A stretch of DNA of 64,000 bases from Longimicrobiales bacterium. Its GTDB lineage: Bacteria; Gemmatimonadota; Gemmatimonadetes; Longimicrobiales; Gaopeijiaceae. A program made the translations under genes and the position numbers. Below, piece by piece: positions 2,862 to 57,909 of this stretch. Below the pieces are notes generated by a model. That model ran no database searches, was not told the DNA's origin, and worked only from the letters and a program-made list of their open reading frames with translations. The stretch covers positions 233,023 through 297,022 of the forward strand of contig CBDCNQ010000004.1 of NCBI GenBank assembly GCA_965219445.1, given 5' to 3'. Every line of letters begins with the position of its first letter. Position 1 is the stretch's first letter.

Positions 2862-3386
2862 TCAGTTGTGTTTTGCCGCCGAGGCGTCCCCGCCCCGGCC
2901 CTGCTCGATCCGCTCATCCATCCATTCCTCGACCTCCGACTCGATCCAGCGCACCGCGCGCTCGCTCAGCCGGACCGCCCGGGGGAAGCGCCCCTGTGCC
3001 GACCAGTCGTAGATCGTGGTCCGCGACAGGCCCGTCAGCGCCTCGACAGCCGAGATCCGCAGGAAACGGATCGGCGCATTCGTTCTCTGTTCGATCGGTT
3101 GTTCACTCATCGCTCTGCTGCTCCTCGTTCTCCTCGCCCCCGGCGAAGGCTTCCGGCGCCGGTGGCCTCGGGGCGGAGTCCGAGGGCCGCCCGAGTCCAG
3201 GTCGGAGTCCGCCACGAACGCCAGAACCCGGTCCGCCGTCCTCAGCGACAGCGAGCGTCCGCCGTCGATCTGGCGCATCAGGTTCGGGTCGCCCAGCGCC
3301 TTCAAGCCGAACGTCGTCGGACTCACGCCCGTGCTGCCCAGAAACGCGTTCAGCCGTGTGTTGAATTGCTCCTCCAGGGTCTGCAT
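2862..3386 (-). CDS. alpA: AlpA-family HTH regulator, apparently fused to a second small HTH-like module
   Basis: The C-terminal 82 aa (from MSEQP, nt 3110) read IRFLRISAVEALTGLSRTTIYDWSAQGRFPRAVRLSERAVRWIESEVEEWM, an AlpA/excisionase-type HTH. The N-terminal 60 aa read MQTLEEQFNTRLNAFLGSTGVSPTTFGLKALGDPNLMRQIDGGRSLSLRTADRVLAFV. The two are joined by an Arg/Pro-rich linker with no stop between them. Confidence 0.75.
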   Translation of the reverse strand: MQTLEEQFNTRLNAFLGSTGVSPTTFGLKALGDPNLMRQIDGGRSLSLRTADRVLAFVADSDLDSGGPRTPPRGHRRRKPSPGARRTRSSRAMSEQPIEQRTNAPIRFLRISAVEALTGLSRTTIYDWSAQGRFPRAVRLSERAVRWIESEVEEWMDERIEQGRGGDASAAKHN

Positions 3387-3449
3387 GAGAGCCGTTCCAA
3401 CCGTGTCATGGCCCGTAACGTTGAAGGGGCCTTTGCCAGGAAGTCAACT

Positions 3450-3467
3450 CTTAGGAAATCTCCTAAG
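3450..3467. promoter_or_regulatory. Inverted repeat CTTAGGA-AATC-TCCTAAG in a divergent promoter region
   Basis: Perfect 7-bp arms read directly in the intergenic space between the alpA-like gene (start 3386, minus) and abiEi (start 3788, plus). Candidate operator. Confidence 0.3.
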
Positions 3468-3787
3468 TGTCCGTGGTGCACGTAGTTATCCGACGTTGTC
3501 CGGGAGGCTCTGGAGGCCGCCGCCAGTGGCATGGCAGACACAGCCTCCGCAGCGCTCGCCAGAGGTTCCCGTCAAGGGTCTTAGGGCTCGACCGGAAGGT
3601 CGGCCCGGGCACGGCCGACTTGGCGTCGCCCACACGGAAGTGACAGGTTTCACATGCCGGGGCGCGCGGCGGTCGCCGAGCGGCGTGCCGTGCCTGCCGC
3701 GGCAACGGATCAAGGGCTTCGAGAGTCGCTCCGAACAGGACGACTGTTATATTTGTGGTTCGATTTGTGACGCGGAGAGAGAAAGCC

Positions 3788-4363
3788 ATGAAGAGCCTGC
3801 CCGAGCGCATCATGGAGCACGCCGAGGCCACGCCGATCTGCCCGGCGGCCCTGCTTCACCTCGGCCAAAGGGCCGCGGTGGGTCAGGCGCTCTCTCGCCT
3901 GGCCCGTTCAGGCCGGCTCATGCGGATCCGCCAAGGGGTCTACATGCGCCCGATCGAGACCCGCTTGGGGCGGTGTGCGCCGGGCACCGAGAAGTCACTC
4001 CTGGCGCTCTCGGAGCTCTGGGGCGAGACGATCGTCCCGAACGGAGGCGGCGCGGCCAACTGGCTTGGTTTGACGACGCAGAATCCCGTCCGCTCGGTCT
4101 ATCTCACCTCCGGCCGCAGTCGGCGATTGCGCTTCGGCAAGCATCCCGTCGAGCTGCGCCACGCTCCGCGCTGGCAACTGGCGGCTCCGCACAGGATGGC
4201 GGGAGTGGTGATCCGTGCCCTGGCATGGTCGGCCCCGAAGAGGTCGAAGACAGCCTCGACGCGATCCTGCCCAAGCTCTCGGAGGAAGACCTCGAGGAGC
4301 TTGCGGTCGCGCGGGGCGTCATGCCGGTGTGGATGGCGGAGCCGCTGACCACGCGTCTGGCGC
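3788..4363 (+). pseudogene. abiEi: AbiEi-type (DUF6088-like) type IV antitoxin, frameshifted
   Basis: MKSLPERIMEHAEATPICPAALLHLGQRAAVGQALSRLARSGRLMRIRQGVYMRP...VIRALAW, then a frame change near 4228 to GPEEVEDSLDAILPKLSEEDLEELAVARGVMPVWMAEPLTTRLAHG. No stop in the second frame before the abiEii start. RBS GGAGAGAG lies before the ATG at 3788. Confidence 0.7.
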
Positions 4364-4885: not shown

Positions 4886-7699
4886 CTACCAGCCCACCGT
4901 GAGTCGGCCCACCAGGCTGTGGTCCGGCTTGTCCTGAAGCAGACTTTCGCGGCGCTGGGCGTCGAGGCCGAACTGGAAGCTCATGGCGCCACCCTGCACG
5001 ACAGCCAGGCTGTAGCCCAGCCGGTAGCCGCGCCCGTACTCGGAAGTCGTGACGCCGAACCTCGGGGTCCCCACCAGCCGACTCCCGACCGGCAGCGCAT
5101 AGCCGAGCTCGGCGTCGATGCGGTCACCCGATCCCGGGCCTCCTGCCCCGAGCCCCTCCATCGTATCGCGGCCCCAGAGCGCGTCGGTACCGCTCATCGC
5201 CTGGCCGCCCCACGAGGGCGCGACCCGCGCTGTAAAGCCCAGCGGCGTCTGTGGCGTCGGATCGTAGCTGAACGACACCGACACGCCCCGTTCCCTGAAC
5301 CCTTCGTCCTGGTGTACGAGCAGCGTCCGCACCCGCACGTCGACCGACAGTCCGGTCAGCGGGTCCGATGCGATCAGGCTTGCGGCGACGTCCGCGCCCG
5401 CGCCCGTCTCGGCGTCCCCGCCGTCCTGCCTGAGCCCGAGCTCGAGGCTCGGCCGGAGCGCGATGCCGTGCCCGAACACGTAGCCTCTCGAGGCCTCGAG
5501 CGCTGTCCGCACACGCGTCACCACCGCCTCGGTGCCAGCCAGTCGGCCTGCCGGACCCTCCACTGCCTCGCTACCCGTGCCCACCCACAGCGCGTCCGCC
5601 TTGAACGCCAGCCCGAACCCGCCGATACCGGCATCCACCAGATCGCCCCTCACGCCTCCGGCCAGCATCGACATCGAGAGCCCGCCCTCGAGAGCGACGG
5701 GAGCCGCGAGAGACGTTGGTAGAGACACTGCCTCGCCCGGCGTCAAGCTCAGCGAGCCCCTCCCGTAGCCGGTCACGCCCCAGAGCGTGACCCGCTCCGT
5801 CAGCTTGTATCCCACCCAGGGGTGGAGCCCCGTGACCGACGACGCCACCTGGCCGATATCGGCTCCCTGGTAGCCGCCCAGGCCTCGGCGGTGCGAGAGC
5901 ATCAGCCCGGCCATCAGCGGCCCCTTCGCGTAGTCGGCGCCGAACATCGTCGTGCGGACCCCGCCATCGAGCGACAGCTCGCCGTCCTGGCCGCTGAACC
6001 GCGACTCCATCCCGCGGCTCCAGAGCGACACGCTCGCGCCCCCGCCCGTCTCGCGGTTCAGCACGAACCCCGAGCCCATCAGCAGGTCGCCGCCTCCGAG
6101 ACCCGTCCGCAAGAGCTCGGAGCCGCTCAGATCGGACTGGACGCCCATCGTATCCCGAGCGCCCGCGCCCGCCGTGGACTGAAGCCGGCTCAGGAAGTTC
6201 CGGCCCATATCGCGCTCCATCCCACGCCTGAGCTCACGGCCCGCGACCCGGCCCCGGAAGCCCGAGGCTCTGGACGCCTCCAGCCGCTCCTCGACCTGCT
6301 CCATCACGTGAAGCGCCGTCGCCCGCCCGAACCGCGCCAGGAGAGCGCGCGGGAGCGGATCGGTGTTCTCGATCGTCCCCGTCGCTTCCGCGTCGGCCAG
6401 CCGGCCCTCCGACGGATTCGAGAGCCGGAGCGTCATCGTCTCCTCGCCCTCGTCGTGCGAATCGTCGAGCACCGCGACCTCGACCGTCTTCGACGACTCG
6501 CCCGTCTGGAACGTGAGCGTCCCGTCCGCCGCCGTGTAGTCCGTCCCCGCCGATGCCGTACCGTTCACCGTCTGGTAGTCCACCGTCACCTGCCCGGCAG
6601 CCGCCCGGCTCAAGGTGACCGCGAAGGCCAGCGGCGCCCCGCCGTTTTCGTCCACCCGCGCGTCGGCGACCGATATCCCCACCGGACTGGCGATGGTCTC
6701 CGACAGCGAATGCGACAGGGGCCTGCCGTCCTCGGTGCAGATCGCGTCGACCGCGTCGCAGTCGGTCGTAGCCGGCAGGTCGATGCGGATCTCGCCGGTG
6801 GTCTCTGGCTGCACATGGATCTCCCGCAGGTCGTTGCGGCCGTCCACCCGGCGTGCCTTCTTCACGTCACCGCCCGTCACCGTGAACGCGCGATCCCGGA
6901 GCACCTCGTAGCTCACCGCCGGATCCTCGCTGAAACGCAGCCGGAAGGTGAACACTGTCGACCCGTCGTGCTCCGACGGCACGTCCTCGAAGCTCGCCGT
7001 CAGCGGCGTCTCGGTGTTCTGGATCGTGCCGGTCGCCTCGGCATCGTCGAGATCGGCGCCGGAGGCGCCGCTGAGGGTGAGCGTGAGGATCTCGCCGCCG
7101 TCTTCCACCGCGTCGTCCGTGATCGGCACCGAGACCGTCTTCGACGTCTCGCCCGGCTGGAAGGTCAGCGTGCCGCTCGTGGCGGTGTAGTCCGAGCCCG
7201 CCGTCGCGGTGCCGTCCGCTGTGGCATAGTCCACCGTCACGGCCGCGGTCGCGGCCGGGTCGAGCGTCACGACGAAGTCGAGCGCAGCGTCCTCTTCCTC
7301 GGTCGCCTCCGCGTCGGCCACCGACAGGCCGCTCGGCGGGTCCGGCGCCGTGTCGTCGGCGTCGTCCGTGTCGTCGGCGGCGGCCTCGGGACCCGGCGGC
7401 CCGGCGACCGTCGCAGACGGGCTGTTGCTCAGCGGCCTCGGGTCGTCCCCGCGCGTGCACACGGCCCCGGCCGTGCCGCAGGCACTGCCGCCGGGAAGCG
7501 AGATCGTCACCGCCTCGCGCGAATCGGGCTCGACCGTGATCTCCCACAGATCGTGGCGGCCATCGACCCGCCGCGCCCCCGTGACGTCACCGTCCGTCAC
7601 CGAGAAGGACTCGTCGCGGAGGGCCTTGTAGCTGATCCCAACGTCCTCGCTGAACTCGACCCGGACGTTGAAGGCGCTCTGGCCGTCGTGCTCCGCCGG
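4886..7699 (-). CDS. Giant Calx-beta autotransporter, exon 2 (C-terminal passenger modules plus autotransporter beta-barrel)
   Basis: ORF 4886..7816. From PAEHDGQSAF onward it has repeated modules, Calx-beta-like segments (VTVDYATADGTATAGSDYTATSGTLTFQPGETSKTVSVPITDD) and a C-terminal beta-barrel ending RLTVGW. The first 39 codons of the ORF are intron sequence. Confidence 0.85.
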   Translation of the reverse strand, partial: PAEHDGQSAFNVRVEFSEDVGISYKALRDESFSVTDGDVTGARRVDGRHDLWEITVEPDSREAVTISLPGGSACGTAGAVCTRGDDPRPLSNSPSATVAGPPGPEAAADDTDDADDTAPDPPSGLSVADAEATEEEDAALDFVVTLDPAATAAVTVDYATADGTATAGSDYTATSGTLTFQPGETSKTVSVPITDDAVEDGGEILTLTLSGASGADLDDAEATGTIQNTETPLTASFEDVPSEHDGSTVFTFRLRFSEDPAVSYEVLRDRAFTVTGGDVKKARRVDGRNDLREIHVQPETTGEIRIDLPATTDCDAVDAICTEDGRPLSHSLSETIASPVGISVADARVDENGGAPLAFAVTLSRAAAGQVTVDYQTVNGTASAGTDYTAADGTLTFQTGESSKTVEVAVLDDSHDEGEETMTLRLSNPSEGRLADAEATGTIENTDPLPRALLARFGRATALHVMEQVEERLEASRASGFRGRVAGRELRRGMERDMGRNFLSRLQSTAGAGARDTMGVQSDLSGSELLRTGLGGGDLLMGSGFVLNRETGGGASVSLWSRGMESRFSGQDGELSLDGGVRTTMFGADYAKGPLMAGLMLSHRRGLGGYQGADIGQVASSVTGLHPWVGYKLTERVTLWGVTGYGRGSLSLTPGEAVSLPTSLAAPVALEGGLSMSMLAGGVRGDLVDAGIGGFGLAFKADALWVGTGSEAVEGPAGRLAGTEAVVTRVRTALEASRGYVFGHGIALRPSLELGLRQDGGDAETGAGADVAASLIASDPLTGLSVDVRVRTLLVHQDEGFRERGVSVSFSYDPTPQTPLGFTARVAPSWGGQAMSGTDALWGRDTMEGLGAGGPGSGDRIDAELGYALPVGSRLVGTPRFGVTTSEYGRGYRLGYSLAVVQGGAMSFQFGLDAQRRESLLQDKPDHSLVGRLTVGW

Positions 7700-9599
7700 A
7701 TCGGGATAGGGGAGGACCGGCGTTCCCGGTCCTTCCCCTCCCACACCACCAGGCATGCGGGTCCGCACCTGGCGGTTCGGTGAGTTGAGGTCAGTACGGC
7801 GTGAGCCGGGGCACACCCAGCTCGTCGAAGTACGCCCCTGGCAAGGCCGTGTGCAGGGCGTGGTGCGCGGCCACGTGCCACCAGCTTCGCGCGAACCGAG
7901 CAGCTCGCCAGGCGAGGTTCTCGCTCACACCGCGAGCCCTCAACTCCCGGTACGCTGTCCTTCCCCGTTTCCACTGGCGTAATTGCAACGTACGCAGCCG
8001 GCGGTGGATCCATTGGTCCAGGTCTCGGAAAACCCCCGGTGTATCCGCTAAGCCGAAGTATGCCTTCCACCCCAGCACGTAGCGCCGTAGCTCTTCTGCC
8101 ACCTGTTGCAGGCTCCGCCCGCCACTCCGGCTTGTAATCTGCCGGACTCGCTCCTTGAACTTCGTCAGGGCCTTCTTGCTGACCCGGCGCTTCACGACCT
8201 TCCCTGCCGCTACCCAGAAGCTGTAGCCCAGGAACTGTCGATCCCACACTCGCGCCACCGCGCTCTTTTCCTCGTTGACCTGAAGCCGAAGTTTCCCGTA
8301 CAAGTGCCTCAGCGCCTGCATCACACGTTGTCCTGCCCGCCTCGACCGCACGTATACATTGCAGTCATCGGCGTACCGGACAAACGCGTGTCCGCGTAGC
8401 TCCAACTCCTTGTCCACTTCGTCCAGGAGCACGTTCGCCAGCAACGGCGACAACGGTCCGCCCTGAGGCGTCCCCATGTGCCGCTCCATCACCACCCCGT
8501 TCGCCATGACTCCGGCTTCCAGGTAGCGACGGAGGATCCGCAGCATCGCCTTATCCTCGATCCGCTTTGCCAGCCGCCCCATCAGCACGTCGTGGTTCAC
8601 CCGGTCGAAAAACTTCTCCAGGTCCACATCCACCACCCATCGTCTCCCTTCCTGGATGTATTGCTGCGCTTCGCGCACCGCATCGTGTGCTCGGCGCCCA
8701 GGCCGGAAGCCGTGGCTGTGCCGACTGAACGTCGGGTCGAACCTCGGTTGCAGCACCTGCAGGATGGCTTGTTGGATGAACCGGTCCAGCACGGTCGGAA
8801 TCCCCAACTCCCGGACCCCTCCCCCACTCTTCGGTATCTCCTGCCTTCGTACCGGCTTCGGTTGGTAGGTCCCCGCCAGCAACCGCTGTCGGATCTCCCC
8901 CCAGTGCCTGCGCAAGTACTCTGGCAGCTCCTCCACGTTCATCCCGTCGATGCCCGGACTGCCCTTATTCTGCCGCACGCGTTTCAACGCTCCTACGAGG
9001 TTGGCACGCCCGACCACCTCCTGCATCAGGAGATGCTCGCTTCCTGAGCGCTCGTCTCCATGGGCCACCGTTCCGGCTTCGCCACTCCCCTCTACCTTCG
9101 GGGCTTCACCCCTATCCTCCAGTGGGAGCCCCAGTTGCCTGGACTCCTGGCGCATGGCCTTGCCGAGGTCCACGGTCGTCACGCTCTCCTCTCCGTTCGG
9201 CCCTTCGTCCGACAAAGCTGGGTCCAAGCGCATCATGCACTTCGTCGGCCTACTATGGCCTCTGCTGACTTCTCGCTCCGCCGGCAGGCCCAACAGCGCA
9301 GTGCCGGCGTCACCCTTTCAGGCGTCAGGCGAGACCTCCCCGGGTAAGAACGATGACCTTCCCCGCACAATCGCCGGATCTACGCCGCTTCCCCTTGGTC
9401 GCAGGAGCTTCGCGGTCAGTGGTCCGCTCGCCCCGGTCCGCAGCGCCTCGTATCCGGTTCCTGTTCGTCGACTCACGGGTTCGTTTCACGCTTCGTTCAG
9501 CGTACGCCTCACGACGAACGCCTTGCGCTTCCCTTCGGTCCCTGCGACCAGGTTCCGGGAGGACTTTCACCTCCAAGTCATCGCCCATGCCGGGCCCAC
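7700..9599 (-). mobile_element. Group II intron (1900 nt) with RT/maturase ORF, sense-oriented inside the autotransporter gene
   Basis: The 5' end reads GTGGGCCCGGCATGGGCGATGACTTGGAGGTGAAAGTCC at 9599. A domain V-like hairpin with a 2-nt 3' bulge spans 7745-7776. A domain VI-like hairpin spans 7700-7742, has an unpaired A at 7707, and ends in ...GAT. The RT ORF lies in between. Confidence 0.85.
7791..9293 (-). CDS. Group II intron reverse transcriptase/maturase (no endonuclease domain seen)
   Basis: ORF 7791..9293 contains RVRQNKGSPGIDG, RRQEIPKSGGGVRELGIPTVLDRFIQQA, MGTPQGGPLSPLLANVLLDE, FVRYADDCNVYV (YADD) and a maturase X region (RYVLGWKAYFGLAD). The likely true start is M47 (nt 9155) or M20/M21. 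Confidence 0.9.
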   Translation of the reverse strand: MGLPAEREVSRGHSRPTKCMMRLDPALSDEGPNGEESVTTVDLGKAMRQESRQLGLPLEDRGEAPKVEGSGEAGTVAHGDERSGSEHLLMQEVVGRANLVGALKRVRQNKGSPGIDGMNVEELPEYLRRHWGEIRQRLLAGTYQPKPVRRQEIPKSGGGVRELGIPTVLDRFIQQAILQVLQPRFDPTFSRHSHGFRPGRRAHDAVREAQQYIQEGRRWVVDVDLEKFFDRVNHDVLMGRLAKRIEDKAMLRILRRYLEAGVMANGVVMERHMGTPQGGPLSPLLANVLLDEVDKELELRGHAFVRYADDCNVYVRSRRAGQRVMQALRHLYGKLRLQVNEEKSAVARVWDRQFLGYSFWVAAGKVVKRRVSKKALTKFKERVRQITSRSGGRSLQQVAEELRRYVLGWKAYFGLADTPGVFRDLDQWIHRRLRTLQLRQWKRGRTAYRELRARGVSENLAWRAARFARSWWHVAAHHALHTALPGAYFDELGVPRLTPY

Positions 9600-12506
9600 C
9601 ACCTCACCGAACGCCGCCGTCAGTGCCGCCGGCGCCGTGTCGTCCGTGTCGTCGTCGGCGTCGGCGGCGGCCTCGGGACCCGGGATCGTCAGCGTCGCCG
9701 GCACCTGCGTCAGCACCGTCCCGCCCGCGGTGCAGATGCCGCCCGAGGCGCAGGCCGCGTCCGCCACCAACGTGAACGTCACGTCACCGTCGCCTTCGGG
9801 GGTCAGGAAGAACAGCCAGGCGTGTGCGAGTCCGTCTTCCGTATGGGCCTGCACCGCGCTGATGGTTCCGCCCGTGACCTGCACCGACGGCGTGTTCGCT
9901 GCGAATGCCGCCACCGCCTCGCTGAAGGTCACCACTACCTGCGGCCGGTCGTCCGATCCCGTGTGCCGCGTCGAGGCGAACCGGCTCGCCGGGAAGCTCG
10001 CCGACAGCGCGGCTCCGTCATCCTCGTCTGCCGTCGCCGCGGCGACCGTGAACGACACCGAGCGCGTCTGCAGCGCGGTGCCCCCGCCATCGGGGTCGGC
10101 GTAGGCCGTCGCCTGCAGCGTGTAGGCGCCCGGCGGCAACCCCTCGCCGCCGTCGGCGTACAGCGTGTAGGGCGCCGCGTTGTCCGTGCGGGTCACCGTC
10201 TTCGCCCCCGACAGCGCCAGCCGCAGGCTCCCGATCGCCGCCTCCGGTATCGTCTCCACCCGGACCCCGTACTGTCCGGTCGCCGGCGCGTCCAGCGTGA
10301 CCTCGGTCCCGTCCGTGAGCGACCCGACATCCGTCCCAGCCGCCGCGTCCACCAGGGTGAAGCCCACGAGCACGTCCTCATGGTTGTAGATCAAGCCGGC
10401 GGCGCGCTCGACTCCGAGACGCGCGCCCGAGACGTTGCTCAGCAGCAGCGCGAACGACTCGCCGCTGTCCTCCACCGTGTCGTCGACGATCGGCACCGAC
10501 ACGGTCTTCTCCGTCTCGCCCCGCGCGAAGGTCAGCGTCCCGGCCGTCGCCTGATAGTCCTCGGGCGCCGTCGCGCTGCGGTCCTCGGTGTGGTAGTCCA
10601 CCGTCACCGTCGAGCTCGCGGCCGGGTGGAGTTCCACCGTGAAGTCGACGGCCGCGTTCCGGCTTTCCCGCGCCAATGCGATCCAGACCCGGATCGTCGG
10701 GGCACCGGACACCGCCGTCCTGCCGTCGACGCGCCGCGCGCGGCCGTGGCCCACCGCGTTCACCGCGCGCACCTCGAAGCTGTATTTCCTCCCCTCCGAG
10801 AGCCCGTCGCTGTGTGTGTAGCCCGTCGTGCTCGCACTGCTGCCCGGGATGGTGGCCCAAAGGGTGAAACCGGGGCTGACCCTCGTGCGCCGGTACTGGT
10901 ATTTCGTGATCGCCCGGCCGCCGTCGTACCGCCTCGTCCACGTCAGCGTGATCGACCGCCGGTCGCCGGGCCTCGCCCTGAGCTCCGGCGCGGACGGCAC
11001 GTCCGGCGTCGTCGCGCTCTGGCTCGCCGCCGCGGAGCGCACCGTACCGGCTCGGATCCGCAGCGCGACCGTGTAGGCGGTCCCATTGGCGAGGCGGCTC
11101 ACGGTGTGGCGGGTGGTCGTCGCGTCGCTGCCGGAGATGTCGGTCCAGGAGTTCCAGGTGTCGCCGCCGTCGGTGCTCAGCCGGTACTGGTACGCCTCCA
11201 CGGCCACGGTCGAGGCCGCCGCCGTCCACGCCAGATCCACCTTGCGGATGCCCGCCGTCACCCCAAAGCCACTCGGGGCGTCCACGGGCAGGGCCTGCGT
11301 TGTCGCCCCCCGCTGGGCAGACGCGCCGCCACCTTCGGAATTCACGGCCCGGATCTGTATGACGTAGGTCGTCTCGTCGGCCAGACCGGTCACGGTGTGG
11401 CGGGTGGTCTGGTAGTTGCTGTTTGGAATCCTCGTCCAGGCGGTGTACGGGTGCGCACCCGATTGGTAGCGCACCTGGTAGTAATCGATACGGTTGAAGG
11501 TGGCCGGCGGCGTCTCCCAAGACAGCGCCACGCGCTGGAAGCCGCCCGCGGCGGCGAGATCCCTCGGCGCGAACGGCGACTCGCTCCGGCGCGGCGTGAA
11601 GGTGATTTCGGCGTGCAGTCCAGGCCCGTCCGCGGTCACCGCCCGGAACTGGTAGGTATAGGAAACCCCACATGTGAAGGAACCACTGAGCTCCGTCGTA
11701 AGCGGATTACCAAGGTCCTGCTGCCAGTCATGGAAGGGTCGATTCCCAACCCTGTGCCGATTCTCGTACCTCGTGATCGCGGTGCCGCCGTTCGATGCGG
11801 GCGCCGACCAGTCCATCGTCACATAACATCCATCCGACAGCGTCACCGTGAGGTTGGTGGGGGGTGCACTGAGGCGTGAGCCCCCGAGTTGGATGCGGAG
11901 CGCCTCGTTGGACCCGGACTTAACCGTCCAGGTGCCGCTGTTGTTCCAGTAGAACTTGTCTTTGATGCTCCAGCCCGGGAAGGCAAAAACATCTTCTCCG
12001 CCGTCGGTGGTGGAGTCGAGTGTCACGCTCCCGGTGCCGTGCTGCTTGATCACCACCACGTAGTTGGTGTTCGCCGAGAGGGCGATGCCGGCGTGCGTGA
12101 ACCTCACGAGCCCGGCCGTGAAGCTGCTCGGCGCCGTCAGGGCCGTGCAGGTGCTGGATGGAAACTCGTCCGCGCTGCCATCCTCCTCGCAGATCTCGAC
12201 GTCGAAGTCGTCGCCCTCGGCGTCCTCGGAGTCGACGATCACGCTGGTGAGCGTGTAGCCGCGCGCGTGGGTACCCGTGTGGAACAGCTGCGCATGGTCG
12301 TTGCCATTGGTTTCGGCGCTGTCATCGGACCCTTTCGTGATGTTGCCCACGAAGGTGATCGTCTGCGCCTCCGCCGCGGCCGCCCCGAGGAGCAGCAGGC
12401 CCACGACGAGGACGGCGGCGGCGGCGCGGCCGGGACGGGCGTGCCGACGGGACCGGTCTCGATCCCGCGCCCCGGCGGGCGCGGCGGAGAGTCGCCGAGT
12501 CAACAC
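9600..12506 (-). CDS. Giant Calx-beta/FN3 autotransporter, exon 1 (signal peptide and N-terminal passenger)
   Basis: ORF 9567..12506. Signal peptide AAAAVLVVGLLLLGAAAAEAQ, several fibronectin-III-like repeats and one Calx-beta segment (VTVDYHTEDRSATAPEDYQATAGTLTFARGETEKTVSVPIVDD). The last genuine codon is GTG (V) at 9602-9600; the remaining 11 codons of the ORF are intron. Confidence 0.85.
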
Positions 12507-57825: not shown

Positions 57826-57909
57826 CGGGGCAGGTGGGATTCGAACCCACGAGGACGGAGTCCTGACCGTTTTTAAGGCGGTTGCGATAAGCCACTCTGC
57901 CACTGCCCG
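57826..57909 (-). tRNA. tRNA-Leu (anticodon UAA), class II with long variable arm
   Basis: Minus strand: CGGGCAG-UG-...-ACCGC CUUAAAA ACGGU - variable stem GGAC/GUCC - GUGGG UUCGAAU CCCAC - CUGCCCC-G. The T arm, variable arm and anticodon loop are canonical. There is a C1:C72 mismatch and a weak D stem. No CCA is encoded. Confidence 0.6.

What the first reader, a model, noticed from the sequence alone, without database searches (positions are those of the whole stretch)
4886..12506. Sense-oriented group II intron splits a 1906-aa Calx-beta/FN3 autotransporter gene, with junctions readable to the nucleotide
The two ~975-aa minus-strand ORFs are halves of one gene.
- Exon 1 ends ...GCG TTC GGT GAG GTG (LTAAFGEV, last nt 9600).
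- The next bases, GTGGGCCCGGCATGGGCGATGACTTGGAGGTGAAAGTCC, look like a GUGNG-type intron 5' end.
- After the RT/maturase stop (7791) there is a domain V-like hairpin, ACCGCCAGG-UGCG-GACC-CGCA-(UG bulge)-CCUGGUGGU (7745-7776).
- A domain VI-like hairpin follows (7700-7742). It has an unpaired A at 7707, 8 nt from the ...GAU 3' end.
- Exon 2 begins CCG GCG GAG CAC GAC GGC (PAEHDG) at 7699, in frame.
- The ligated peptide LTAAFGEV|PAEHDGQSAF mirrors the uninterrupted paralogous module junction LTASFEDVPSEHDGSTVF inside exon 2. This independently supports the junction.
- The spliced ORF is 2907 + 2814 nt.

Bacterial group II introns are usually found in mobile DNA or intergenic sites. One sitting inside a very large surface-protein gene, in the orientation that allows splicing, would make expression of the adhesin depend on intron splicing. 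The IEP shows no endonuclease domain.
Basis: partly seen in the sequence, partly recalled or inferred. Interest (0 to 1): 0.8.

Follow-up and report, generated by a model that had tools for sequence, protein, structure and literature searches.

The report
Terminator-seeking intron landed inside a gene
A mobile class C (IIC) group II intron, which normally parks harmlessly behind transcription terminators, has here inserted into the coding sequence of a 1906-aa surface-protein gene, so an intact protein can be made only if the intron splices out.

Summary
A 1900-nt group II intron (window 9599..7700, minus strand) splits one 1906-aa gene (12506..9600 + 7699..4886). Rfam models, covariation in domains V/VI, about 30 near-identical copies elsewhere and intron-free homologues all agree on the boundaries.

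The interpretation needs revision. This is a bacterial class C (IIC) intron, not a site-specific homing intron.
- The IEP is closest to GsI-IIC RT and has no endonuclease domain.
- Domain V carries a CGC triad.
- There is a 3-4 bp EBS1 and no EBS2.
- The family is highly proliferative in Longimicrobiales MAGs, with up to 13 copies per genome at about 99% identity.
- 28 of 32 distinct sites lie just after strong hairpin + T-run terminators.

The window copy is a rare off-target insertion. Its 5' exon has only a weak hairpin plus GGUG. It is the only copy sampled that splits a long host ORF.

Splicing, and therefore adhesin expression, is inferred and not shown. The missing 5'-exon hairpin may impair exon ligation.

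The "autotransporter" label is only partly supported. The C-terminus is a predicted outer-membrane β-barrel of about 20 strands with no autotransporter HMM match.

The intron is a new member of a known kind in an atypical location.

The parts
9600..12506 (-). Exon 1 of the host surface-protein gene (969 codons). It encodes a signal-peptide-like N-terminus, FN3 repeats, a Calx-beta domain and the start of a repeated ~110-130 aa module. It ends ...TTCGGTGAGGTG. The GTG start at 12506 is the mechanical first start codon and has not been verified.
7700..9599 (-). Class C (IIC) group II intron, 1900 nt: 5' GUGGGCCCGG ... CCCGAU 3'.
9348..9518 (-). Domain I core (Rfam RF02001 match). It contains the EBS1 hairpin.
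9418..9421 (-). EBS1, 5'-CACU-3' (intron nt 179-182), in the loop ACCACUGA. It pairs with the last 4 nt of exon 1 (GGUG; GUG in nearly all sister copies).
   Evidence: loop versus own 5' exon among relatives: score 90 against 62.6 +/- 6.6 when permuted, p~5e-5
9601..9636 (-). Weak 5'-exon hairpin (CGCCG.GC...GC.CGGCG) followed by UUCGGUGAG and IBS1. This is the terminator-mimicking part of the target.
   Evidence: z = -0.5, against -4 to -8 at typical sites
9200..9288 (-). Domain II/III region (Rfam RF01998 match).
7791..9026 (-). Intron-encoded RT/maturase, 411 aa from ATG 9026 (stop 7793-7791). It has RT and X/maturase domains, an intact YADD motif and no endonuclease domain. It lies in domain IV.
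7745..7776 (-). Domain V: 9-bp + 4-bp helix, 2-nt bulge, and a CGC catalytic triad (7774-7772) with a G.U wobble.
7702..7743 (-). Domain VI, with the unpaired branch-point A at 7707 (8th nt from the 3' end).
4886..7699 (-). Exon 2 (937 codons + stop). It begins CCGGCGGAG (IBS3 = C). It encodes two repeated modules, two Calx-beta domains and a C-terminal helix + ~20-strand predicted outer-membrane beta-barrel (about 4889-6358).

Best explanation
A full-length, apparently functional bacterial class C (IIC) group II intron lies inside the coding sequence of a 1906-aa outer-membrane-anchored Calx-beta/FN3 surface-protein gene, in the sense orientation.

The intron belongs to a highly proliferative family of Longimicrobiales (Gemmatimonadota) genomes. 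That family retrotransposes to sites defined by a DNA/RNA hairpin (intrinsic terminator), a 3-4 nt IBS1 (GUG) and a pyrimidine IBS3.

The window copy is a rare ectopic insertion. The site offers a 4-bp IBS1 (GGUG with EBS1 CACU), IBS3 = C and only a weak GC hairpin 12 nt upstream.

What is shown:
- intron identity and class
- exact boundaries
- an intact ribozyme core and IEP
- intron-free homologous sites that match the join

What is inferred:
- The pre-mRNA can be spliced, assisted by the IEP, to restore the ORF exactly.
- Unspliced mRNA would give a 979-aa protein truncated 10 codons into the intron and lacking the membrane barrel.
- Because the 5'-exon hairpin that IIC ribozymes use for exon ligation is weak, splicing may be inefficient. 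The insertion is then at best a throttle on expression of this paralogue and at worst a knock-out.
For: - Rfam group II models match.
- IEP best matches are GsI-IIC RT (E 4.8e-145), the E. rectale IIC maturase (4e-95) and the R. intestinalis maturase (7e-80). LtrA (2e-41) and the TeI4h-type RT (2e-37) are far weaker.
- The IEP matches TIGR04416 at 424 bits and has RVT_1 + GIIM only.
- The CGC triad is invariant, and DV/DVI covary.
- About 30 copies at about 99% identity occur in 10 MAGs, up to 13 per genome.
- Their flanks are hairpin + T-run + GTG | intron | C/T.
- 28 of 32 distinct sites have hairpin z <= -2.5. The window has z = -0.56.
- Only the window copy splits a long high-GC3 ORF. L013 sits in an IS3-type transposase gene, also in the sense orientation.
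- The EBS1 loop covaries with the 5' exon ends.
- Empty sites are present in L067 and L068.
- The window copy is 12 nt from the family consensus. Its IEP differs by 2 aa and keeps YADD.
- Literature: class C introns insert after terminators and avoid coding sequences (PMC8919778; PMC7306698; PMC4424553). In vivo and maturase-assisted IIC splicing is accurate (PMC1702495).
Against: - There are no expression data, so splicing of this copy is untested.
- In B.h.I1 self-splicing, deleting the 5'-exon stem abolished exon ligation (PMC1702495). Here the stem is weak and no better than shuffled sequence.
- Both exons being intact ORFs is uninformative, because the insertion is recent (about 99.4% identical to consensus).
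- The occupied allele was found only in the window. Two metagenome scans found nothing, so its frequency in the population is unknown.
- Class assignment of the IEP rests on best-hit similarity, not on a phylogeny.
Confidence: 0.85

Rival explanations
1. Dead-end disruption. The intron does not ligate these exons at a useful rate, because the terminator hairpin is missing. The gene is then a recently inactivated paralogue, tolerated because the family is large and redundant.
For: - The stem-loop is needed for exon ligation in IIC self-splicing (PMC1702495).
- The window hairpin has z = -0.56.
- More than 847 homologues share the C-terminal barrel domain.
- A 95%-identical homologue (L067) is itself broken by an IS element.
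- The insertion is young.
Against: - Maturase-assisted and in vivo IIC splicing was reported to be accurate.
- IBS1 is the dominant determinant, and here it is 4 bp, better than the 3 bp at most sister sites.
- The ribozyme core and IEP are intact.
Confidence: 0.4
2. This is a site-specific (IIA/IIB-like) homing intron whose natural home is this module boundary. It is recognised by EBS1 + EBS2, and the adhesin gene has evolved to depend on it.
For: - UUCGGU in exon 1 (-12..-7) is complementary to ACCGAA at intron nt 61-66.
- Similar UUCGG motifs precede two other hairpin-poor sites, L012 and L023.
Against: - About 30 sister copies lie at unrelated terminator sites with U-runs that cannot pair with ACCGAA.
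- The register of UUCGG differs between the sites.
- None of the 66 intron loci lies next to a homologue of this gene.
- Three equivalent module boundaries in L068 and two in L067 are empty.
- The IEP is class C.
Confidence: 0.03
3. Assembly artefact. A repeated intron was mis-joined into the gene during assembly.
For: The intron is a multi-copy, 99%-identical repeat, which is the kind of sequence that confuses assemblers.
Against: Both junctions fall at the exact element ends. The two flanks rejoin to a sequence that matches empty homologous sites base for base, apart from one synonymous change. A chimeric join would not do this.
Confidence: 0.02

Closest known systems
GsI-IIC (Geobacillus stearothermophilus), a proliferative class C intron whose RT structure is solved (PDB 6AR1)
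   Same: - It is the closest solved IEP (E 4.8e-145, full-length alignment).
- It has no endonuclease domain.
- It is a multi-copy family within genomes.
- It uses terminator-type targets. That rests on established knowledge and citations in PMC8919778 and PMC7306698.
   Different: - The host phylum differs: Gemmatimonadota/Longimicrobiales, high GC.
- The 5' end is GUGGG rather than GUGYG.
- The copy studied here is inside a long ORF.
B.h.I1 (Bacillus halodurans), the IIC intron used to define 5'-exon recognition (PMC1702495)
   Same: - IBS1 is 3-4 nt, with a 5'-exon stem-loop and no EBS2.
- Its copies sit behind terminators, like the sister copies here.
   Different: [quoted passage not shown] The window copy does, and it lacks a strong stem-loop.
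C.te.I1, a group II intron in a Clostridium tetani surface-layer protein gene (PMC3919590, PMC4024640)
   Same: It is a bacterial group II intron interrupting a surface-protein coding region made of repeated modules. Splicing there fuses the reading frames.
   Different: C.te.I1 is not class C and is ORF-less. It has evolved alternative 5' splicing with demonstrated in vivo products. Nothing comparable is shown here.
Group II introns in conserved bacterial genes (for example G. kaustophilus recA, Azotobacter groEL, cyanobacterial CL/ML introns; cited in PMC4424553)
   Same: The intron is sense-oriented within a host coding or functional gene, so splicing is needed for expression.
   Different: Those introns belong to the IIA/IIB lineages and have long EBS/IBS homing specificity.

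Membership tests
Bacterial class C (IIC) group II intron | The IEP belongs to the class C RT lineage. | tested here: met
   The best solved-structure matches are all IIC RTs: GsI-IIC 4.8e-145, E.r. 4e-95, R.i. 7e-80. The IIA and IIB RTs score about 1e-40. This is a similarity ranking, not a phylogeny.
Bacterial class C (IIC) group II intron | The IEP lacks the endonuclease (HNH) domain. | tested here: met
   Pfam finds RVT_1 + GIIM only. The 411-aa protein is collinear with the 420-aa GsI-IIC RT.
Bacterial class C (IIC) group II intron | The family inserts just downstream of intrinsic terminators or other stem-loops. | tested here: met
   28 of 32 distinct sister sites have hairpins with z <= -2.5, followed by T-runs.
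Bacterial class C (IIC) group II intron | This copy sits downstream of a terminator stem-loop. | tested here: not met
   It lies inside a 1906-aa ORF. The upstream hairpin is weak (centroid -13.8 kcal/mol, z about -0.5), and only 3 of the 10 bases at -13..-4 are T, so there is no T-run. This is a property of the site, not of the element.
Bacterial class C (IIC) group II intron | IBS1-EBS1 is short (3-4 bp), with IBS3-EBS3 and no EBS2-IBS2. | tested here: met
   Only GTG is conserved upstream, and C/T downstream. The EBS1 loop covaries with exon ends in relatives. EBS3 itself was not located.
Bacterial class C (IIC) group II intron | Domain V has a CGC triad in place of AGC, and the ribozyme is compact. 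| tested here: met
   The RF00029 alignment places CGC where the consensus has AGC. The triad is invariant in 12 relatives. Domains I-III fit in the first ~400 nt.
Bacterial class C (IIC) group II intron | Catalytic splicing and retromobility. | not testable with these tools
   Mobility is implied by about 30 near-identical copies. Splicing of this copy is untested.
Classical (type Va) autotransporter | Match to the autotransporter beta-domain HMM (PF03797 or NCBIfam equivalents). | tested here: not met
   The C-terminal 510 aa gives no hit at E <= 1 in Pfam or NCBIfam. Homologues carry only Calx-beta annotations.
Classical (type Va) autotransporter | A 12-stranded C-terminal barrel plugged by an alpha-helical linker. 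| tested here: inconclusive
   The AF2 model (pLDDT 70, pTM 0.68) has helix 4-27 and then about 20 strands. Foldseek hits TonB-dependent receptors, BamA and LptD as well as the BrkA (TMt 0.64) and EspP beta-domains.
Site-specific homing intron (IIA/IIB style) | Copies recur at one conserved about 20-35 bp homing site recognised by EBS1 + EBS2. | tested here: not met
   Sister copies have unrelated flanks. Equivalent module boundaries are empty in L067 and L068.

The most novel reading that the evidence does not exclude
A class C intron is stably tolerated inside a large surface-protein ORF because it splices accurately in vivo without a terminator hairpin. It would then be transcribed at the full rate of the host gene instead of by about 1% terminator read-through. 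In that case this copy would couple adhesin expression to intron splicing. It would also act as a high-output source copy driving the intron's proliferation in these genomes. [quoted passage not shown]
Probability: 0.15. Interest if true: 0.65.

Novelty: new member of a known kind. Interest (0 to 1): 0.4.

Why it matters
Class C introns are thought to succeed by never interrupting genes. The literature states that they do not reside in ORFs, so the accuracy and efficiency of their exon ligation have been considered irrelevant to the host.

This locus is a natural case where a functional-looking IIC intron must ligate exons precisely, and must do so without its usual 5'-exon hairpin, for a host protein to be made. 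It gives a ready-made substrate for testing how much the stem-loop contributes to IIC splicing in vivo.

It also documents the off-target rate of a highly proliferative IIC family in a little-studied phylum. About 2 of 32 sites fall in coding sequence.

It is not evidence of a new mechanism or of an evolved dependence of the adhesin on the intron.

Tried and rejected
1. EBS2 search. ACCGAA (intron nt 61-66) is complementary to UUCGGU in exon 1, and similar motifs precede L012 and L023. I rejected it as a general EBS2. The register differs between sites, about 28 terminator sites have U-runs there, and the segment is probably within a domain I stem.

2. Alternative 5' boundary at GUGGU (9602). 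The empty-site sequence and the sister copies exclude it.

3. Two metagenome scans, one for the 5' exon and one for the occupied junction. Both returned nothing.

4. Pfam and NCBIfam on the C-terminal 510 aa. Nothing matched.

5. Looking for the window's own proteins in the protein database. No 100% hits appeared among the or results, so the source assembly and sample could not be identified.

6. Looking for another intron copy next to a homologue of this gene family. None was found among the 66 loci.

7. The GsI-IIC paper (Mohr et al. 2018) is not held in the library, so its data on hairpin-less sites could not be cited.

8. In-frame restoration as evidence of function. I rejected this because it follows automatically from precise insertion.
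Full report
**1. Observation**

The two long minus-strand ORFs exist: 9567..12506 (979 aa) and 4886..7816 (976 aa). Joining 12506..9600 to 7699..4886 gives 2907 + 2814 nt with no internal stop. The product is 1906 aa and reads ...LTAAFGEV|PAEHDGQSAF... at the junction. The paralogous module boundary ...LTASFEDVPSEHDGSTVF... lies about 240 aa downstream.

Three Rfam group II models hit the interval on the minus strand:
- RF02001: 114.7 bits, E 9e-23 (9518-9348).
- RF01998: 40.5 bits (9288-9200).
- RF00029 (domains V-VI): 38.1 bits, two bits under its gathering score. It aligns 7777-7700 and ends ...AU at 7700.

The internal ORF has RVT_1 and GIIM domains only. It matches TIGR04416, group II RT/maturase, at 424 bits.

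**2. Boundaries**

A scan of one genome per species with the IEP returned 66 loci. BLAST of the 1900-nt interval against them gave about 28 full-length copies at 99.0-99.4% identity, covering nt 1-1900 exactly. The flanks of these copies are unrelated to each other and to the window. Similarity starts at GTGGGCCCGG and stops at CCCGAT in every case.

Independent confirmation comes from two homologues without the intron.
- A 217-aa protein (P0002, 92% identical) reads straight through the junction.
- Its contig L067 is 94-95% identical in DNA to the host gene. It contains GACGGCGTCGTTCGGTGAGGTG|CCAGCGGAGCACGACGG twice, uninterrupted.
- A second homologue on a 1.5-Mb contig (L068) has three empty equivalents and no intron.

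The alternative boundary 3 nt upstream (GUGGU...) is incompatible with the empty site.

**3. RNA anatomy**

I aligned the last 95 nt of 12 relatives that are 65-77% identical overall. The alignment supports:
- domain V (window 7776-7745): 13 pairs, 3 of them with compensatory changes;
- domain VI (7743-7702): several compensatory pairs;
- a conserved unpaired UA whose A is 7707, the 8th nucleotide from the 3' end.

The catalytic triad is CGC (7774-7772) with a G.U wobble. It is invariant in all relatives. In the RF00029 alignment it sits where the consensus has AGC.

The 5' end is GUGGG, where the relatives have GUGUG or GUGCG.

A hairpin GCGG-ACCACUGA-CCGC (intron nt 173-188) carries CACU. 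This pairs with the exon's last four bases, GGUG. In 13 relatives, the sequence of this loop tracks the last bases of each intron's own 5' exon. Own-pair complementarity scores 90, against 62.6 +/- 6.6 for permuted pairs (p~5e-5). I take this loop as EBS1.

No general EBS2 exists. Upstream of GTG the sister sites share only T-richness.

**4. Class**

Several features together define bacterial class C (IIC):
- The IEP's best matches among solved structures are GsI-IIC RT (E 4.8e-145, collinear from residue 89 of the mechanical ORF), the Eubacterium rectale IIC maturase (4e-95) and the Roseburia intestinalis maturase (7e-80). LtrA (IIA) scores 2e-41 and the TeI4h-type RT (IIB) scores 2e-37.
- There is no endonuclease domain.
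- The triad is CGC.
- The ribozyme is compact, with domains I-III in the first ~400 nt.
- IBS1 is 3-4 bp.
- Above all, the insertion pattern of the sister copies fits.

On that last point, 28 of 32 distinct sites lie 7-12 nt after a strong GC hairpin followed by a T-run. Their hairpin z-scores run from -2.5 to -8.4 against shuffles.

The literature describes exactly this behaviour. It adds that class C introns thereby avoid coding sequences (PMC8919778; PMC7306698; PMC4424553). [quoted passage not shown]

The likely IEP start is the ATG at 9026, giving 411 aa with YADD intact. The protein differs from the family consensus at two residues.

**5. What is unusual here**

The family is highly proliferative. 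There are at least 13, 8, 6 and 4 copies in four Longimicrobiales MAGs, all about 99% identical.

Among the distinct sites, the window copy is the only one that splits a long ORF with high third-position GC. That ORF is 1937 codons stop-to-stop with GC3 0.89. One other copy (L013) lies in the sense orientation inside an IS3-type transposase gene (...VL|CSVLGLSPSGYYAWLK...).

Both of these sites are among the four with no significant hairpin. The window has z = -0.56 and L013 has z = -0.52.

The window target offers three things:
- a 4-bp IBS1 (GGUG);
- a C as the first base of the 3' exon, as in roughly half the sister sites;
- a weak stem CGCCG.GC/GC.CGGCG located 12 nt upstream. Its centroid energy is -13.8 kcal/mol, no better than shuffled GC-rich sequence.

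No other intron locus lies next to a homologue of this gene. Equivalent module boundaries elsewhere are empty.

The simplest reading is a rare ectopic retrotransposition, not homing to a dedicated site.

**6. Consequences for the host gene (inferred)**

Precise insertion means that precise splicing restores the ORF. The in-frame join is therefore automatic and says nothing about selection.

Unspliced mRNA would be translated to a stop 10 codons into the intron (9569-9567). The product would carry the signal peptide, FN3 and one Calx-beta domain, but not the C-terminal membrane domain.

Whether splicing occurs is open.
- In favour: IBS1 is the dominant determinant and is good here. The ribozyme core and IEP are intact. 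Maturase-assisted and in vivo IIC splicing was reported to be accurate.
- Against: in B.h.I1 self-splicing, deleting the 5'-exon stem blocked exon ligation, and here the stem is weak.

The copy differs from the family consensus at 12 of 1900 positions, and 9 of those are shared with one other copy. The insertion is therefore young, and the intact exons carry no information about selection.

The gene family is very large, with more than 847 homologues of the C-terminal domain. A 95%-identical homologue is itself broken by an IS element. Loss of one paralogue would probably be tolerated.

**7. The host protein**

FN3 and Calx-beta domains are confirmed.

The C-terminal 490-510 aa match no Pfam or NCBIfam family, even at E <= 1. 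An AlphaFold2 model built from 59 homologues (pLDDT 70, pTM 0.68) has an N-terminal helix followed by about 20 long antiparallel strands.

Foldseek against the PDB finds outer-membrane barrels in general:
- TonB-dependent receptors, BamA and LptD;
- the autotransporter beta-domains of BrkA (TM 0.64 on the target) and EspP.

'Outer-membrane beta-barrel anchor, autotransporter-like architecture' is justified. Membership of the classical 12-strand type Va family is not.

**8. Verdict**

It is a sense-oriented group II intron in a giant surface-protein gene with exact junctions. However, it is a class C terminator-seeking retroelement that has landed off-target. It is not an intron with EBS1/EBS2 specificity for this gene.

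In kind, it is a new member of a known class in a new host lineage. Its location contradicts the usual statement about IIC introns. That makes it a useful natural test case, but nothing here shows function or a new mechanism.

Interest is 0.4.

Noticed in passing
L067:2848-4257 (ENA ERZ25068966 ctg284640): The 95%-identical, intron-free homologue of the host gene is itself interrupted by an IS element. The IS carries a DDE_Tnp_1 transposase on the opposite strand at 2958-4178. CTACAAG is present on both sides, which may be a target-site duplication. This surface-protein family seems to be hit repeatedly by mobile DNA.
   Followed up: partly
L001 vs L010; L003 vs L025; L004/L010/L023/L049 (3' flank CATCCAACCGAG...): Some intron copies in one MAG share an identical 5' flank but have different 3' flanks, and others show the reverse. 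The common 3' flank looks like the end of an IS481/rve-type transposase gene on the opposite strand (…GLEEIDHDVWAVYFGPVSLGWM). Two explanations fit: recombination between intron copies has rearranged the genome, or the introns target terminators at the ends of repeated IS elements.
   Followed up: no
L021, L023, L025-L028, L030, L046, L050: Several copies are longer than 1900 nt (1916-4230 nt) or are split in BLAST alignments. This points to insertions inside introns (nested introns or IS elements) and to partial duplicated 5' ends, for example an extra 82-nt 5' fragment in L026.
   Followed up: no
L014 (CBDHCU010000002.1, labelled Dehalococcoidia): A 99%-identical intron copy has the same flanks as Longimicrobiales locus L046 (nearly the same in L002). 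It lies on a 47-kb contig binned as Dehalococcoidia. This is probably a mis-binned contig rather than cross-phylum transfer.
   Followed up: no
window 6800-7699 and ~6000-6300 (minus strand; protein aa ~960-1090 and ~1200-1300): A repeated module of about 110-130 aa (LTASF..VP.EHDG...F.F...FSE....SY..LRD..F.V.GG.V..ARRVDGR.DLWEI.V.P......I.LP....C...GA.CT) has no Pfam match. It is abundant, and tandemly variable in number, in related proteins (P0001, P0002, P0017).
   Followed up: partly
window 4889-6358 (minus strand): The C-terminal domain is a helix followed by a predicted outer-membrane barrel of about 20 strands. It has more than 847 homologues and no Pfam or NCBIfam model, so it is an undescribed anchor domain family.
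   Followed up: partly
window 9534-9539 (intron nt 61-66, ACCGAA) and exon 1 9606-9611 (UUCGGU): A 6-nt perfect complementarity links the intron and the 5' exon. Similar UUCGG motifs precede two other hairpin-poor sites (L012, L023), but in a different register. It is probably chance, although it could help at sites that lack a terminator.
   Followed up: partly
window 9595-9599: The intron starts GUGGG, whereas all relatives at 65-77% identity start GUGUG or GUGCG. Position 4 takes part in the epsilon-epsilon' contact in other group II introns. I did not look for a compensating change.
   Followed up: no
window 57826-57909 (minus strand): tRNA-Leu (anticodon TAA) is the only tRNA in the window.
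   Followed up: no
window 5822-7783 (+), 9822-11879 (+), 8950-10104 (+): Long ORFs lie antisense to the host gene and intron. They are expected by-products of the high GC content, not genes.
   Followed up: partly
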